Positions 35,645-42,933 of a stretch of DNA of 64,000 bases are shown here, in pieces. Where the stretch lies: NCBI RefSeq assembly GCF_009914755.1, contig NC_060927.1; one strand, 5' to 3'. Numbering within the stretch: position 1 is the first letter of the stretch; each line of letters opens with the position of its first letter. The position numbers and the translations under genes were made by a program. This stretch comes from the human T2T-CHM13v2.0 reference genome, Homo sapiens. The notes under the pieces are model-generated. The model did not search any database. It saw only the letters and a list, made by a program, of their open reading frames with translations, and was not told the origin of the DNA.

Positions 35645-36000
35645 CCCTCCCGAGGGAAGCTGAGGTCTTATTAGGGTAGTGAACACCGTGCCAGATGTTT
35701 TGAGAGTGCCGATTGAGAGAAGGTACAGACACGGGAAACGTTAGCATTTACTTTGGAGTTAAGGTGACGCAGGAACCGTCACTGCAGCGTTTGCTTTGCG
35801 TTCAGATGCGGCAGCTCAGCGCAGCTGTAGGTGGAGGAGCGTGCCAGGGAGGGGGGAGCTGGGATGCAGCTGCAATCTACACTCGCAGGGGTCTGTCCTG
35901 CCTCCCGAGGCTGCGTTGCGGTGGGCGCGAAAGGCTCGTGTGTACCGAAGTATAGGGGACCTGTCTGCAGCAGGAGGGACTCGAAGGACACGGAGGATTA
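35645..36000 (-). other. RUBCN: Candidate upstream non-coding first exon of RUBCN (5' end undefined)
   Basis: Strong minus-strand donor GGG|gtaagt (plus acttac at 35639-35644) at the edge of the FYTTD1 CpG island. I recall a RUBCN isoform that starts at Met61 from a distal promoter. The 36000 boundary is a placeholder. Confidence 0.55.
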
Positions 36001-37100
36001 TATCACTGAAGGCATAAGATTCAGAGGTGCCCGCGGTCTAGCATCCCCCAGTTTGGGCGGAAAGTCGAACTGCTCACAACGGCGGTCCTCGCGAGCGCCT
36101 AGCACAGCGGCTGCAATGCCTCGTCCGATCCTGCGAGGGCCGCTAGGAGCGAGTCACGGCGCGGGGCCGCTCTGGTCGCCCGCGAGTGTCGGTGGCCCCG
36201 CCCCGCCCGCAGCCGCGGGTGGAGACCGAGGACGGCGCCGGCGCGTGCGCGCTCCCTCGGTGCGGCGGGCTGCGTGCGCGAGTGGGAGGTGGCAGGCCTG
36301 CGACTCCGGCCTTGTCCGCGCCCGCTCTCGGCGCGACGTCTCCAGCCATGAACCGGTTTGGTACCCGGTTGGTGGGAGCCACGGCGACTTCTTCGCCGCC
36401 GCCGAAGGCCCGCAGCAATGAAAACCTCGACAAAATAGATATGTCTTTGGGTGAGGGGCCGAGTTGGACCGAGTTGGAGTGCGGGGGAGGGCGCGGGTGG
36501 AAGCCGGCGGCGCGGTTTGTGGGGGCAGGGGCGGTCGGCAGCAGTTGCCGGCGGAGTTTTCTCGCTGGTGGGCGGACCCGAGCGGAGGCCCGGAGGACAG
36601 CCGGGAGCGCAGGCTCGACGCCAGGTGCCCGGCTGGACCGCGAGGGACCCGGGCGTCCCCTCGGCCGCGGCAGTCGGAGGAGGGGCTGTGGAGGCGGGGG
36701 CCGGGGCGCTGCGGGCCCGAAGGTTCGCAGGGTCGCGGGGGGCGTCTCTTCTCCCCGGAGGGGCTACGGCTCGCCGCTCGCCGGCTCTTTGTGAGGAAAG
36801 ATCTGCCGGTTTCCCCGGAGCGCGTTCGCGGTGGGCGTTATCGGGGAGCGAGGGGAATGGTCCGACCGAGCCGTTCTCTCTGAAGAAAGGTCTTGGAGAG
36901 CCCGGCCGGGGCTGCGGTCGGTTAAACCAGCGCTTCCGGAGCTTTCCCTGGTCGCCGGGCGTTCCAGGCCGGCGCCGGCCATGGCTGCCGGGCGCGACTC
37001 TCGGGGCCACCTCCGGCCGCGGCCCCGGAGCGTCTGTCAGAAAGGAAGCAGCGCTCGGCCGCCTGTGGGATGTGGTTGTGTATTGAGCGCTGCCTAGAAA
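35750..37100. promoter_or_regulatory. FYTTD1: CpG-island promoter of FYTTD1, probably bidirectional with distal RUBCN start
   Basis: Very high GC/CpG; tandem GC boxes ccccgccccgccc at ~36196-36208 upstream of the ATG. Confidence 0.88.
36348..36450 (+). CDS. FYTTD1: UIF coding exon 1
   Basis: gccATG; MNRFGTRLVGATATSSPPPKARSNENLDKIDMSL+G (103 nt), donor TGG|gtgagg. Carries the first half of the ALYREF-type UAP56-binding motif DKIDMSLDDII. Confidence 0.96.
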
Positions 37101-38251
37101 AGCACAGTCTCCCTCTCCAGGCCTCAGAGCTAGCTAATGGGGGAGAAAGCAAACATCTTTGAAGGAGAGATGATTGCTGTGGCTCGCTGAGAAGCCAGGT
37201 AAAGCGTGGGGTTCTTGAGCGCATCTGAGAGGGTGGCGTGGTTTCTTGCCGATTATATAAAAACCGGGAGGTTGGTGATTCCATTAAAATCCAGCCCTGA
37301 CACTACCGAGGCACCAGCCGCTGTGGTTAGCTTAGGTGGGCTAAAAGTACGAATATTTTTGTCGGGATTCAAGTGATGGCGTTGGGTGTAAGTCAGCTCT
37401 GCCAGGTGTTTGGCTGGCAGTTTTTCGGATATTTGAAAAGTACCTGACTAGTGGATTCCGAGGCGTACCCTTTCCCAGGACGGTCTTTAGAGTGATAACT
37501 GTCTTGGAAACCTTCTTTCGGTTTTCATTTCTTCCCATTTGTCTTGTGTGTCTTTTGTTGTGGTTTATCTGGAACGTTTTTGGTTCCAGGTGAGATGGGA
37601 ACTATTGATTTCTACGATTGCCACAGTCAGAATCCAGTATGTGAACTAAGCAAATGATCAGAAATAATAGGTTTGGCCTCAAGTCTTGCCTTGCTGCTGG
37701 TTAGTAGTGAGCTTGTAAGAAATGAGAAAGCTGGGGCTGGGCGCGGTGGCTCACGCCTGCAATCCCAGCCCTTTGAAGGCGGAGGCGGAGGCAGGCAGAT
37801 GGCTTGAGCCCAGGAGTTCGAGACCAGCCCGGGCAGCAAGGTGAAATCCCATGTCTACTAAAAATACTAAAATTAGCCGGGCGTGGTGGCCGCGCGCCTG
37901 TAATCCCAGCTAAGACATGAGAATAGCTGGAACCCGCGGGCGGATGTTGCAGTGAGCCGATTGCGCCACTGCACTCCAGCCTGGGCGGCAGAGCGAGACC
38001 CTGTCTCCCCCCGCTCTCCCCCCCCGCAAAAAAGAGAGAGAAACCTTTTGAGGTAAGGCCAAGAAATAATGTAATAATGAATATTTATTGAGTGCTTACT
38101 ACCTACCAGGTCCTGTACTAAGCATTTTATATGTTAACTCAGTTTATCCTCGTCATAACTCTGTGAGGATTCTAGCGATGGAGAGCACGGAACCCAGAAC
38201 CACATTGTCTCAGTTCAGGTCCTGGACTAAGCATTAAATTAAATTAATTAA

Positions 38252-39160: not shown

Positions 39161-41771
39161 ATTTGTTGTTATTTCCATTTTACAGAAATCAGAGGCATAG
39201 AGAAATTAAGTAACTTGCTCGAAGTCATACAAGGTAGTTAAGTGGTGGTGCCAGGATTTCAGTCTGATTCTAGAGCCTCAAGTTGTTTTACACCTAGATT
39301 TCTTACGTTTCTAGGTTTTCTGTTTTCTTTTTTGTATGTGTTTTGTTTGATGATTAGTACGTTCAAGTGAAGAAAACTGAGGGGTAGTTCTCTTGGAGGT
39401 AGCAATGAAGTGCTGTGGAGAGCTGAAACAGCTTGATATCTTTCTTTCCCCCAGGAACATACAGCAGTCCCTCTATTGCCTTTCTTTTGGTGAGAATTTT
39501 ACAGAAATGGGATGAAGAGATCATCCCATTTCTATCCTAGACATCATCTATCCTAGGCAGTTACTATGCTTTGTGAATGTTTAATCTTACCAGGTTTGCA
39601 GAGGTTTTTTTGTTTTAAATCATGGCTTTGCCAGGTGTATATGAATTTCACATAGAGTACCAAGTTTACCAATAGCTGGCCTCATGGTTCAATTCCTTAA
39701 TTTGAAAATCGGTGTTACGGTGATACTTATTTCATAGGATTGTTGTGAATTAAGTGAATACATGTCAGAACTGTTGGTACTAACATTGCTGGTGCCTGTG
39801 CTGTAGTACTTACCACCACCACTGCTGCTACTGCTGCTATTACTATTACCATGTATATTCCTCTAGTGCTATGGAAGAAACTTAAAATAGCTCATTGTAA
39901 GGAATTTTTTTTTTTTTTTAATTCTGATACCTGTGTATCTATTCATTGGGCAGGAGAAAGCCGTTTTCTTTTTTTAGATTGAAAGAATCCTCTCGGCCAT
40001 GGTAGCTCATTTGACTTATTTGAAGATATAGGTAGTAAAATGTTGAAATGTGAAATGTAATTTTATATTTAATATGCTCTGCTACTTCTGATTTTTAGTT
40101 ATATTTAGACTTTATATGCTGTATTTTATTTTATTTATTTATTTATTTTGAGACGGAGTCTTGCTCTGTCGCCCAGGCTGGAGTGCAGTGGCACGATCTC
40201 GGCTTCCCAGGTTCACAACATTCTCCTGCCTCAGCCTCCCAAGTAGCTGGGACTACAGGCGCCCACCGCCACACCCGGCTAATTTTTTGTATTTTTTAGT
40301 AGACACAGGGTTTCACCATATTAGCCAGGATGGTCTCGATCTCCTGACCTCATGATCCGCCCACTTCGGCCTCCCAAAGTGCTGGGATTACAGGCGTGAG
40401 CTACCGCACCCGGCCTATATGCTATATTTTAAGATGAACTTTGTTAGTCAGAATTGTACTTTGCCTCTTTTTTTTAATGCTCCCCAGACAAAATTCATTT
40501 TTTTGGTTTACTCTCAAGGCTTGAGATTTTAGACTTTTGATGAAGAGTAAGTAGCACTTTGTGAAAGGAAAGTGGTGTCTCATAAATAGTGTCTTCCTTG
40601 GTATTCCCTTTATGCTTGTTGAGATACATGTTTATATATCTGATGTTGACCTTTTAATTTTTTACAAAAGTTTTTGAGTGCCCTTAACTTTGATGAACTT
40701 TTTCGTAGTTGGACATTAATTTCAAGAAGACAACTAAATATTTTGGGGAGATTTGAGATATTTTGTGTGAATATTTGAGTGTAATTAAGAGTCTTAAAGA
40801 TTAGAGATTGGTTAGGTAGAACAGTAATATATTACAAAGGACCTTCAAGTTATATTTCCTTCTCTGACTTCTGGAAAGACTAATTATAGTGACAAAAAAA
40901 TTGAGTTTAATTAGTTTCATAGAGTTTTATTAAGAATTTGTTGACTGTATGCAATTTCTTTGTTTTATTTGCTTTCTCAATTATGAAATAATACTGGAAT
41001 TAGGACTATGGAGGAAATGTTTGTGGGTTTTTTTTTTTCTTTCTTTTTTTTTTTTTTTGAAAGACAGTCTTGCTCTGTTGCCTAGGCTGGAGTGCAGTGG
41101 CGTGATTGTGGCTCACTGCAGCCTTGACCACTTGAGCTCAAGGAATTCTCCCACCTCAGCCTCCTGGGTAGCTGGGACCACGGGCACGCACCACCATGCC
41201 TGGCTAATTTTTAAAAATTATTTGTGGAGATGAGGTTTTGCTGTGTTGCCCAGGTTGGTCTCGAACTCTTGGGCTGAAGCATTCTCCCATCTCACCTCTA
41301 AAAGTGCTGAGGTTACAGGCATGTGCCCAGCTGGATATTTCTTAAATGAGTATTTTTGGCTTCTAGTAACCTCTTTTAACAGATATAAATGGGAATCTGG
41401 AGTACATTTAGTTTTCTGGTCTTCACCTTGTTCTGTTGTGTATTTTTGTTTGTGAATTACCTTGGGGCAGTTTGGAAGTATGTTTGGAAGTAATGAGGCT
41501 TAGATCAGTGTAGAAAGAAAAATAAGGTAACTTGAAGTACTTTGCTAGAGGTGAGTCATTAGTATTTTTTGTACTATACCTTTATTATGGCACTTGTTTA
41601 ATTTTGTATTTGCTATTTGCATGTCTGTTTCCATCAGTACTTTTAAACTTATTTAGAAAAGGGACCATATTTTACTTTTGTTTCAGTTACAGCACAACCT
41701 GACACATATATTTGTTGCATGTAGTATATGCTCAGTAAATATTTGCTGAATTTCAACATTTAGTATTTTAG

Positions 41772-42179
<408 letters not shown>

Positions 42180-42180
42180 T

Positions 42181-42550
42181 AAAAAATGGAGCCTTCTGTG
42201 ATTATGGGAAGTAAGTAGGAAAATGGAGGCTTCTGTGTTTTTGGGAAGTAAGTAGGAAAATGGAGGCTTCTGCGATTATGGGAAGTAGGTAGGAAAATGG
42301 AGGCTTCTGTGATTATGGGAAGTAGGTAGGAAAATGGAGGCTTCTGTGATTATGGGAAGTAGGTAGGAAAATGGAGGCTTCTGTGATTATGGGAAGTAGG
42401 TAGGAAAATGGAGGCTTCTGTGATTATGGGAAGTAGGTAGGAAATTGGAGGCTTCTGTGATTACGGGAAGTAGGTAGGAAATTAGAGGCTTCTGTGATTA
42501 TGGGAAGTAAGTAGGAAATTGGAGGCTTCTGTGATTATGGGAAGTAAGTA
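42181..42550 (+). repeat. 37-bp minisatellite, 10 copies
   Basis: Unit ggaaaatggaggcttctgtgattatgggaagtaggta; units start at 42181, 42218, 42255 ... 42514. Confidence 0.95.
42186..42210 (+). CDS. FYTTD1: Alternative start exon CDS (MEPSVIMG-N) in first unit of 37-bp VNTR
   Basis: aaaATGGAGCCTTCTGTGATTATGGGAA|gtaagt: 25 nt, phase 1, joining exon 2 in frame (MEPSVIMGNDIIKLN). Matches my recollection of a shorter annotated isoform N-terminus. The 5' boundary of the exon is not determined. Confidence 0.7.
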
Positions 42551-42801
42551 GGAATAACTTGTAAACAGGCTTCTGCTTGATTCATCAGGTAAAGAAATAC
42601 TATGGCCAATAGCACTCTTCATTAATTGGTAGATCTGCTTTGGGCTATTGTAAAATGGCTGATTCTTGTTATTATCCTCTTATGGAAGTGCTTTCAAAGT
42701 AGAAAAGAAGTTAGGAACGTAGGACATCTATCAGCTAGAAAACGAAACTGAGTAATTGAGTTAAGTTAAAATGAAAATAATTGGCATTTCCTCTATCATA
42801 G

Positions 42802-42933
42802 ATGATATCATCAAGTTGAATCGAAAGGAAGGGAAGAAGCAGAATTTTCCAAGACTAAATAGAAGACTCCTCCAGCAAAGTGGTGCCCAGCAATTCAGGA
42901 TGAGAGTGCGATGGGGAATCCAACAGAATTCTG
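42802..42933 (+). CDS. FYTTD1: UIF coding exon 2
   Basis: atag|ATGATATC...TCTG|gtaagt, 132 nt: (D)DIIKLNRKEGKKQNFPRLNRRLLQQSGAQQFRMRVRWGIQQNS. Confidence 0.96.

What the first reader, a model, noticed from the sequence alone, without database searches (positions are those of the whole stretch)
42181..42550. VNTR made of self-contained start-codon / splice-donor / stop modules upstream of FYTTD1 exon 2
Seen in the sequence: all 10 units of 37 bp contain GAA|gtaagt or GAA|gtaggt, a consensus-like 5' splice site. Units 1-7 have aaaATGG (A at -3, G at +4) exactly 25 nt before the donor, giving phase 1, the phase exon 2 needs. Most units also hold a second in-frame attATGG. If a unit's donor is not used, its ATG reads ME(P/A)S..GS(K/R) then TAG, a 10-codon ORF. 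Inference: splicing at unit n gives an in-frame FYTTD1 protein preceded by n-1 strong uORFs, so donor choice and allele copy number could tune output of this isoform. The array is also a cluster of 10 U1 sites 250 nt from the exon 2 acceptor. I recall that the unit-1 product (MEPSVIMGN) is an annotated isoform; the modular array logic is my inference and I do not know it to be described.
Basis: partly seen in the sequence, partly recalled or inferred. Interest (0 to 1): 0.8.

Follow-up and report, generated by a model that had tools for sequence, protein, structure and literature searches.

The report
FYTTD1 intron repeat copying a splice donor
A 37-base sequence repeated ten times in the first intron of the human gene FYTTD1 supplies, with its first copy, the start codon and splice site of a known minor transcript whose other end comes from a neighbouring Alu element; the nine further copies look like by-products of duplication.

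Summary
Window 42183-42554 is a 37-bp tandem array of 10.1 copies, found nowhere else in the T2T genome. All 10 units carry GAA|GTAAGT or GAA|GTAGGT. Units 1-7 carry aaaATGg 25 nt before that donor, which gives phase 1, the phase exon 2 needs.

The annotated exon 42046-42210 starts exactly at the linker 3' splice site of an antisense Alu and ends at the unit-1 donor. It is an Alu/VNTR composite exon.

Four results weaken the "tuning ladder" idea:
- Units 3-8 have a more U1-complementary donor 4 nt downstream that is out of frame.
- Units 8-10 have lost the first ATG.
- Variable columns are not depleted at motif positions.
- The Alu part already puts three uATGs ahead of the unit-1 ATG.

No RNA, population or primate data could be examined. 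FYTTD1 was absent from the held supplements of five tandem-repeat studies.

The closest precedent is the ABCA7 intron-18 VNTR, whose first unit holds the canonical donor and whose next unit is a cryptic one. My verdict is a real, modestly interesting member of a known kind whose regulatory use is unproven.

The parts
41805..41821 (.). Upstream target-site duplication of the Alu (GGAAGGTGGTCATCTTT)
   Evidence: a direct repeat of 17 nt, 94% identical to 42164-42180, with 359 nt spacing that brackets the Alu
41822..42163 (-). Dimeric Alu, antisense to FYTTD1. The right arm is about 41843-41985 and the left arm 42046-42162.
   Evidence: two Metazoa_SRP (RF00017) matches on the minus strand, 54.6 and 58.7 bits, E 9e-13 and 6e-14. 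Both are below the family's gathering score of 70, as expected for 7SL-derived Alu monomers. A poly-T run at the + strand start is visible.
41988..42035 (+). (ATTT)12 microsatellite in the Alu linker. It forms most of the pyrimidine-rich tract ahead of the exon's 3' splice site.
   Evidence: period 4, 12 copies, 100% matches; one search shows tttatttatttatttgtatttttag|TAGAGACGGG
42046..42210 (+). Annotated alternative exon of 165 nt. It consists of the antisense Alu left arm, the target-site duplication and the first 28 nt of VNTR unit 1.
   Evidence: Hub annotation table.: AG preceded by a T-rich tract at the 5' border and GAA|gtaagt at the 3' border.: the exon start coincides with the end of the left-arm match.
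42164..42180 (.). Downstream target-site duplication of the Alu
42183..42554 (+). 37-bp minisatellite of 10.1 copies. Units 4-7 are identical and the edge units are the most diverged.
   Evidence: It is unique in the genome: 10 forward matches, all within this array, and 0 reverse matches.
42186..42188 (+). ATG of unit 1, the start of the MEPSVIMGN... reading frame. It recurs at +37k in units 2-7.
42211..42216 (+). In-frame donor of unit 1 (GTAAGT), the annotated 5' splice site. It recurs at +37k in all 10 units, as GTAGGT in units 3-8.
   Evidence: -7.2 and -6.9 kcal/mol with the U1 5' end
42289..42294 (+). Second, out-of-frame donor register TAG|GTAGGA in unit 3. It recurs at +37k in units 4-8.
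   Evidence: -9.1 kcal/mol, the same core as the annotated exon 3 donor AAG|GTAGGA at -9.2; phase 2, immediate stop in exon 2
42567..42594 (+). Degenerate partial unit in the 3' flank, with a further donor-like site CAG|GTAAAG (last exon base 42588)
   Evidence: AGGCTTCTGcttGATT; 2 of 500 shuffles reach the score; -8.3 kcal/mol
42802..42933 (+). FYTTD1 exon 2, the phase-1 acceptor exon to which the array donors would join
   Evidence: Hub annotation table

Best explanation
This is a locus-specific 37-bp minisatellite in FYTTD1 intron 1 that directly abuts an antisense Alu. The Alu linker supplies a T-rich tract and an AG acceptor at 42045/42046. VNTR unit 1 supplies a usable donor (GAA|GTAAGT, last exon base 42210) and an ATG in phase with exon 2. 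Together they make the annotated 165-nt alternative exon.

When that exon follows a non-coding first exon (35909-36026 or 36623-37198), the unit-1 ATG opens an N-terminally altered UIF in which canonical residues 1-35 are replaced by nine residues. When it follows the canonical exon 1, it carries an in-frame TAA and would act as a poison exon.

The other nine ATG/donor/stop modules exist because tandem duplication copied the unit that holds the exon's 3' end. They are most likely unused or rarely used cryptic donors and are not a selected regulatory ladder.

Shown: the array, the motifs, the phases, the Alu, the splice-site sequences and the uniqueness in the genome. Inferred: that the exon is internal, that downstream donors are little used, and that the repetition is neutral.
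For: - Array and unit anatomy.
- Splice signals: the exon 42046-42210 has a textbook acceptor upstream. Exons 35909-36026 and 36623-37198 have no AG upstream but do have GT donors, so they are first exons.
- Alu: SRP-like arms lie on the minus strand at 42046-42162 and 41843-41985. The exon start coincides with the left-arm end. A 17-nt target-site duplication flanks the element.
- Literature (passages of PMC2639721): antisense Alus exonize from the right arm (313 cases) or the left arm (77 cases), each arm preceded by a poly-T stretch.
- Canonical exon 1 plus this exon plus exon 2 reads into TAA two codons before the unit-1 ATG.
- No sign of constraint on the modules: ATG1 is lost in 3 of 10 units and ATG2 in 2 of 10. 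5 of 8 variable columns fall in the 15 core motif columns, against 3.2 expected.
- Units 4-7 are identical and the edge units are diverged, the usual pattern of recent internal expansion.
- Six of 10 units have a better-pairing, out-of-frame donor register.
- Three Alu-derived uATGs already precede the unit-1 ATG.
- No dispersed copies of the unit exist in the genome.
- No RefSeq functional element is listed over the array in the hub table.
Against: - No transcript, ribosome, population or cross-species data were available, so non-use of donors 2-10 is inferred and not shown.
- The in-frame donors of units 1, 2, 9 and 10 pair with U1 as well as or better than the constitutive donors of FYTTD1 exons 4-7 (-7.2 against -5.6 to -6.7 kcal/mol). 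They are credible splice sites.
- In ABCA7 the equivalent next-unit donor is used.
- The full module is uncommon by chance: 2.2% of shuffles and 0.5% of intron 37-mers.
- The constraint test has only 8 variable columns and little power.
- The U1 duplex energy is a crude proxy for splice-site strength.
- Whether RefSeq models 42046-42210 as an internal or a first exon is not shown in the hub table.
Confidence: 0.7

Rival explanations
1. One reading: the array is a ladder of alternative in-frame start/donor modules. Splicing at unit n yields the same kind of N-terminally altered UIF behind n-1 short uORFs, so donor choice and allele copy number tune the isoform's output.
For: - The geometry is exactly as described. 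Seven units give ME(P/A)S...GN-DIIKL products, and units 9 and 10 still give MGN-DIIKL from the second ATG.
- The ATGs have A at -3 and G at +4.
- The GTAAGT donors pair with U1 as well as constitutive FYTTD1 donors do.
- ABCA7 shows that next-unit donors in such arrays can be used.
Against: - Units 3-8 favour an out-of-frame register by U1 pairing (-9.1 against -6.9 kcal/mol), which gives an immediate stop.
- Units 8-10 have lost ATG1, and variation is not depleted at motif positions.
- The leader already has three uATGs, one of which overlaps the main ATG. Extra uORFs would act on an already poorly translated minor isoform.
- FYTTD1 does not occur in the held supplements of five tandem-repeat eQTL, sQTL or catalogue papers. 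One file each was not searchable.
- FYTTD1+VNTR and FYTTD1+sQTL each return 0 papers.
Confidence: 0.1
2. The array acts at the RNA level as a copy-number-dependent splicing modulator and not as a source of products. It would be a dense cluster of U1-complementary sites and UAGG motifs downstream of the unit-1 donor that raises or lowers inclusion of the Alu/VNTR exon, or the efficiency of the exon 2 acceptor 250 nt away, as VNTR length does in ABCA7.
For: - 10 of the 28 GT sites in the 6.35-kb intron 1 with a U1 duplex of -7.0 kcal/mol or better lie in the 372-bp array, and the six GTAGGT sites score -6.9.
- Each unit holds one TAGG and units 3-8 hold two, 16 in all (read). UAGG as an hnRNP A1-type silencer core is recalled and was not tested here.
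- In ABCA7, VNTR length is reported to affect splicing of the flanking exons (passages).
Against: - No binding or splicing data were available.
- Motif density follows automatically from repeating one unit.
- No FYTTD1 entry occurs in the splicing-associated tandem-repeat supplements that could be searched (10 files searched, file 1 not searchable).
Confidence: 0.15
3. The array is a DNA-level regulatory element, for example ten tandem GGAAGT (ETS-core-like) sites acting as an intronic enhancer or silencer for FYTTD1 or RUBCN. Its splice and start motifs would then be incidental.
For: GGAAGT occurs once per unit (read). The ETS-core assignment is recalled, not tested. The array lies about 6 kb from the shared FYTTD1/RUBCN promoter region in the hub table.
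Against: The RefSeq functional elements listed by the hub (enhancers and silencers) do not include this interval. No VNTR-eQTL entry for FYTTD1 occurs in the held supplements. No chromatin data were available.
Confidence: 0.05

Closest known systems
ABCA7 intron-18 25-bp VNTR (De Roeck et al. 2018, PMC5954066; passages seen)
   Same: The VNTR directly abuts an exon. The first two bases of its first unit are the exon's canonical GT donor. The same motif recurs in later units, and a cryptic donor exactly one unit downstream is used, retaining one unit. VNTR length is reported to affect splicing.
   Different: - In ABCA7 the exon is a constitutive internal coding exon, and retaining a unit shifts the frame.
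- Here the exon is a minor alternative exon, and the unit also contains the start codon and an in-frame stop. Any in-frame donor would therefore restore a similar ORF, with earlier units left as uORFs.
- Use of later units and a length effect are documented for ABCA7 and untested here.
Left-arm exonization of antisense Alu elements (Schwartz et al. 2009, PMC2639721, passages; Gal-Mark et al. 2008, PMC2330237, abstract)
   Same: The Alu lies antisense in an intron. The 3' splice site sits just after the internal T-rich linker. The exon body is the antisense left arm. The exon is alternative, not constitutive.
   Different: In the published left-arm set the 5' splice sites lie inside the Alu, downstream of consensus position 249. 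Here the donor lies 48 nt beyond the Alu's end, in an unrelated minisatellite. The linker tract has also been lengthened by an (ATTT)12 microsatellite.
uORF control of 5' leaders produced by alternative splicing (general knowledge, recalled)
   Same: Short ORFs with good Kozak context upstream of the main ATG would be expected to lower its translation. Three such uATGs are already present in the annotated exon.
   Different: The number of uORFs would be set by which repeat unit's donor is used and by the allele's copy number. I found no description of this. VNTR+uORF+splice returned 19 papers; of the 12 listed, judged from titles and abstract starts, none is about such an array.

Membership tests
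Minisatellite / VNTR | Head-to-tail tandem copies of a unit of about 10-100 bp | tested here: met
   period 37, 10.1 copies, 95% matches, no indels
Minisatellite / VNTR | Copy number varies among individuals | not testable with these tools
   Only one human assembly is held. FYTTD1 is absent from the held supplements of four VNTR papers (file 1 not searchable) and of one paper on splicing-associated tandem repeats (file 1 not searchable).
Antisense-Alu exonization | An Alu lies antisense to the host gene within an intron | tested here: met
   two SRP-like arms on the minus strand.: flanking target-site duplication. The hub table places it in FYTTD1 intron 1.
Antisense-Alu exonization | The 3' splice site (AG) follows an Alu poly-T tract | tested here: met
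   tttatttatttatttgtatttttag|TAGAGACGGG. The exon start 42046 coincides with the end of the left-arm match.
Antisense-Alu exonization | The 5' splice site lies within the same Alu arm | tested here: not met
   The donor follows 42210, 48 nt past the left arm's end at 42162, inside VNTR unit 1. The exon is therefore a composite and not a pure Alu exon.
Antisense-Alu exonization | The exon is spliced in from an upstream exon (internal exon) | not testable with these tools
   The hub table lists the exon without its transcript structure. The acceptor sequence suggests an internal exon, but no RNA data are held.
Exon-abutting VNTR with a donor in every unit (ABCA7 type) | The first unit provides the annotated donor of the adjoining exon | tested here: met
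   The hub table gives the exon end as 42210, which is offset 28 of unit 1.
Exon-abutting VNTR with a donor in every unit (ABCA7 type) | A donor-like motif is repeated in later units | tested here: met
   10 of 10 units have GAA|GTAAGT or GAA|GTAGGT. Six units also have TAG|GTAGGA.
Exon-abutting VNTR with a donor in every unit (ABCA7 type) | Later-unit donors are used in RNA, and repeat length affects splicing | not testable with these tools
   No RNA-seq or genotype data were available. Literature searches found nothing on this locus.
uORF-regulated leader | An upstream ATG with an in-frame stop lies before or overlaps the main ATG in the mature mRNA | tested here: met
   the annotated exon holds uATGs at 42064, 42100 and 42154. 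The last ORF overlaps the ATG at 42186. The VNTR-unit uORFs would exist only if later donors are used.
uORF-regulated leader | Ribosome initiation at the uATGs and an effect on main-ORF output | not testable with these tools
   No ribosome profiling or reporter data were available.

The most novel reading that the evidence does not exclude
The array is a copy-number-polymorphic rheostat. The spliceosome distributes over the in-frame donors of several units. Each choice yields an N-terminally altered UIF lacking the canonical first 35 residues, behind a different number of strong 10-codon uORFs. Alleles with more units would then shift splicing towards heavily uORF-loaded or out-of-frame products, setting the level of this isoform or of a poison-exon transcript in a heritable, graded way.
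Probability: 0.08. Interest if true: 0.7.

Novelty: new member of a known kind. Interest (0 to 1): 0.3.

Why it matters
UIF (FYTTD1) is an mRNA-export adaptor that acts redundantly with ALYREF and binds UAP56 through a short N-terminal motif; deleting that motif abolishes binding (passages of PMC2828547; PMC5095910). The alternative exon replaces the first 35 canonical residues with nine. The isoform may therefore bind UAP56 poorly. That rests on my recollection that the motif spans the exon 1/exon 2 junction, which I could not confirm: two searches of solved structures, one with each exon's translation, returned nothing.

If the minisatellite's length or unit composition changes how often the Alu/VNTR exon is included, it would be a heritable modifier of an export factor. 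It would also be a second worked example, after ABCA7, of a VNTR that multiplies an exon's own donor.

As it stands, the locus is a neat illustration of how two repeats, an Alu and a minisatellite, can jointly create an exon. It is also a caution that repeated "modules" in a tandem array count as one observation, not ten.

Tried and rejected
- **"Unit 0" upstream of the Alu.** I asked whether the Alu had inserted into an older copy of the repeat. The 5' flank 41740-41822 aligns to the unit no better than shuffles (198 of 500 reach the score). Rejected. The 3' flank does hold a degenerate partial unit (2 of 500).
- **Unit as part of a dispersed repeat family.** The whole-genome DNA and pattern searches found only this array. 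Rejected, with the tool's caveat that only the best candidates are scored.
- **Processed pseudogenes as fossils of the splice junction.** Two loci (G000 C1 about 173.73 Mb, C9 about 113.55 Mb) both join canonical exon 1 directly to exon 2. Neither contains the unit-1 segment. Their exons are only 74-91% identical to the gene, so they probably predate the Alu and say little.
- **RNA structure.** The array folds at -89.8 kcal/mol, z = -5.9 against shuffles. The MFE has frequency 0 in the ensemble and the centroid is almost unpaired. The signal comes from a wobble-palindromic GGAGGCUUCU pairing between units in many registers. I do not treat it as a defined structure.
- **MIR137 VNTR paper (PMC6692358).** The passages seen describe two novel donors in an exon but do not say they lie in each repeat unit. 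Not used as a precedent.
- **Location of the UAP56-binding motif.** phmmer of the exon 1 and exon 2 translations against PDB sequences gave 0 hits each at E up to 10.
- **Literature on this locus.** FYTTD1+VNTR gave 0 papers. FYTTD1+sQTL gave 0. FYTTD1+tandem repeat gave 5 and FYTTD1+Alu+exon gave 3, all unrelated judging by titles and abstract starts.
- **Supplements of five tandem-repeat studies.** No FYTTD1 entry in the files held. File 1 of PMC10078293 and file 1 of PMC10234305 could not be searched, and PDF supplements are not held. An entry listed only by coordinates would also have been missed.

Full report
**What is there.** Window 42183-42554 is a clean 37-bp tandem array: 10.1 copies, 95% matches, no indels, TRF score 653. 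In register from 42183, units 4-7 are identical to the consensus. Units 1, 2, 3, 8, 9 and 10 differ from it at 1-3 positions. A 32-nt core of the unit occurs 10 times in the window at up to 3 mismatches and in none of 100 shuffles. In the whole T2T assembly the same pattern gives 10 forward and 0 reverse matches, all inside this array. A 185-nt piece of the array finds only itself. So this is a locus-specific minisatellite, not a piece of a dispersed repeat. The 3' flank holds one degenerate partial unit, which 2 of 500 shuffles match in score. The 5' flank holds none (198 of 500).

Every point checks out.
- All 10 units have GAA|GT at offset 28. It is GTAAGT in units 1, 2, 9 and 10 and GTAGGT in units 3-8.
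- Units 1-7 have aaaATGg with the A at 42186+37k. There are 25 nt from that A to the last exon base, which gives phase 1.
- Canonical exon 1 coding (36348-36450) is 103 nt, so exon 2 does need phase 1.
- Eight of 10 units keep the second in-frame attATGg.
- Unspliced, each of units 1-7 reads a 10-codon ORF ending at TAG.
- Joined to exon 2, the in-frame donor of every unit except unit 8, which has neither ATG, opens the FYTTD1 frame.
- The hub table lists exon 42046-42210 among other transcripts, so the unit-1 donor is an annotated splice site.

- Rfam finds two 7SL-like arms on the minus strand, at 41843-41985 and 42046-42162 (54.6 and 58.7 bits).
- The element is flanked by a 17-nt target-site duplication, 41805-41821 and 42164-42180, with 16 of 17 bases identical.
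- The annotated exon starts at 42046, exactly where the left-arm match ends.
- Immediately upstream lies tttatttatttatttgtatttttag, a T-rich tract ending in AG. An (ATTT)12 microsatellite in the Alu linker has lengthened this tract.
- This is the known route of left-arm exonization of antisense Alus. In passages of PMC2639721, 77 left-arm and 313 right-arm cases are reported, each arm preceded by a poly-T stretch.
- The 5' splice site differs from that route. It is not in the Alu but 48 nt beyond it, in VNTR unit 1.
- The two other non-selected exons (35909-36026 and 36623-37198) have GT after them and no AG before them. They look like alternative first exons that could feed this acceptor.
- That 42046-42210 is an internal exon is my inference from the sequence. 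The hub table does not give the transcript structure.

**Consequences for the products.**
- From a non-coding first exon, the first long ORF starts at the unit-1 ATG. It replaces canonical residues 1-35 with nine residues.
- The Alu part of the exon already contains uATGs at 42064, 42100 and 42154. Two of them have A at -3. The ORF from 42154 overlaps the ATG at 42186 and ends just before the second ATG at 42204.
- If the 165-nt exon is included after canonical exon 1, the frame stays open through the Alu and stops at a TAA two codons before the unit-1 ATG. That is a poison-exon configuration.

**How good are the donors.** I used the computed duplex energy with the 5' end of U1, which is a crude proxy and uses a motif I recalled.

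| Site | Energy (kcal/mol) |
|---|---|
| Array GAA\|GUAAGU | -7.2 |
| Array GAA\|GUAGGU | -6.9 |
| Annotated donors of exons 4-7 | -5.6 to -6.7 |
| Annotated donors of exons 1-3 | -9.1 to -9.8 |
| UAG\|GUAGGA, second register in units 3-8 | -9.1 |
| AAG\|GUAGGA, annotated exon 3 donor | -9.2 |
| CAG\|GUAAAG at 42588 in the flank | -8.3 |

- The array donors are therefore credible.
- In units 3-8 the +4 A>G change creates the second register 4 nt downstream, with the same core as the annotated exon 3 donor.
- That register is in phase 2 and runs straight into a stop in exon 2.
- By this measure only units 1, 2, 9 and 10 have the in-frame site as their best donor, and units 9 and 10 have lost the first ATG.
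- Of 419 GT sites in intron 1, 28 reach -7.0 or better, and 10 of those lie in the array.

**Is the repetition selected?** Nothing says so.
- The ten modules are copies of one unit, so they count as a single observation.
- For a single unit, the full module appears in 448 of 20000 composition-matched shuffles and in 29 of 5553 37-mers from intron 1. That is uncommon but unremarkable given how many minisatellites lie in introns.
- Eight of the 37 columns vary among units. Five fall in the 15 core motif columns (two ATGs and donor positions -3 to +6), against 3.2 expected. Six fall in a wider 21-column set, against 4.5 expected.
- So variation is not depleted at motif positions, although the test has little power.
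- Identical central units with diverged edges are the ordinary signature of recent internal expansion.

**Literature.**
- FYTTD1 with VNTR or with sQTL returns no paper.
- FYTTD1 with "tandem repeat" (5 papers) or with Alu and exon (3 papers) returns only unrelated work, judging by titles and abstract starts.
- FYTTD1 does not occur in the held supplements of five tandem-repeat eQTL, sQTL or catalogue studies. One file each could not be searched. PDF supplements are not held. Tables keyed by coordinates alone would be missed.
- The closest precedent is the ABCA7 intron-18 VNTR. Its first two bases are the canonical donor of exon 18. A cryptic donor one unit downstream is used, which retains 25 bp. 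Repeat length is reported to affect splicing (passages of PMC5954066).
- VNTR+uORF+splice returned 19 papers. None of the 12 listed, by title and abstract start, describes an array of start/donor/stop units.

**Dead ends.**
- Two processed FYTTD1 pseudogenes in the genome both join canonical exon 1 to exon 2 and lack the unit-1 segment. They are old (74-91% identical by exon) and probably predate the Alu.
- The array RNA folds better than shuffles (z = -5.9) but without a defined structure.
- Searches for solved structures with either exon's peptide gave nothing.
- I could therefore not place UIF's UAP56-binding motif relative to the junction. That it spans the junction is recalled, not shown. 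The passages seen say only that the motif was found by homology to the N-terminal REF peptide and that deleting it abolishes UAP56 binding.

**Verdict.**
- The most likely account (0.7) is an Alu/minisatellite composite alternative exon whose donor-and-start unit happens to be the repeated unit. The later modules would be by-products that are at most minor cryptic donors.
No RNA, population or primate data could be examined.
- This is a new member of a known kind: an exon-abutting VNTR that multiplies the exon's donor, combined with Alu exonization. It carries an unusual extra, the start codon and stop inside the unit.
- Interest is moderate to low until junction counts and copy-number genotypes are in hand.

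Noticed in passing
window 41988-42035: A perfect (ATTT)12 microsatellite sits in the Alu linker, directly upstream of the alternative exon's acceptor. It forms most of the pyrimidine-rich tract and pushes any branch point in the CTAAT just upstream to about 60 nt from the AG. Its length could be a second polymorphic input to inclusion of this exon.
   Followed up: no
window 42154-42201: The uORF starting at accATGc (42154, 15 codons) overlaps the unit-1 ATG at 42186 out of frame and stops 2 nt before the second in-frame ATG at 42204. This geometry would favour bypass of the first ATG and possible reinitiation at the second.
   Followed up: partly
window 36348-36450 + 42046-42210 + 42802: If the 165-nt exon is included after the canonical exon 1, the frame stays open across the whole antisense Alu arm and ends at a TAA two codons before the unit-1 ATG. 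That is a possible NMD-targeted poison-exon transcript.
   Followed up: partly
L009 (G000:C1:173724290-173727397) and L010 (G000:C9:113546875-113549930): Two intronless FYTTD1-like copies have exons 1-7 contiguous on the minus strand and are 74-91% identical by exon to the gene. Both carry the canonical exon 1/exon 2 junction. They are presumably old processed pseudogenes.
   Followed up: partly
window 42183-42554: The segment GGAGGCTTCT of each unit is self-complementary as RNA when G-U pairs are allowed. Units can therefore pair with one another in many registers (MFE -89.8 kcal/mol, z = -5.9, but the centroid is almost unpaired). The unit is also strongly G-over-C skewed (14 G and 2 C of 37, read).
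   Followed up: partly
window 42763-42848: A weak Rfam match to PYLIS_6 (27.3 bits against a gathering score of 80, E 0.07) spans the exon 2 acceptor. It is almost certainly a chance match. The mir-3135 and mir-1268 matches at 41860-41987 and 42113-42164 are Alu-derived and below threshold.
   Followed up: no
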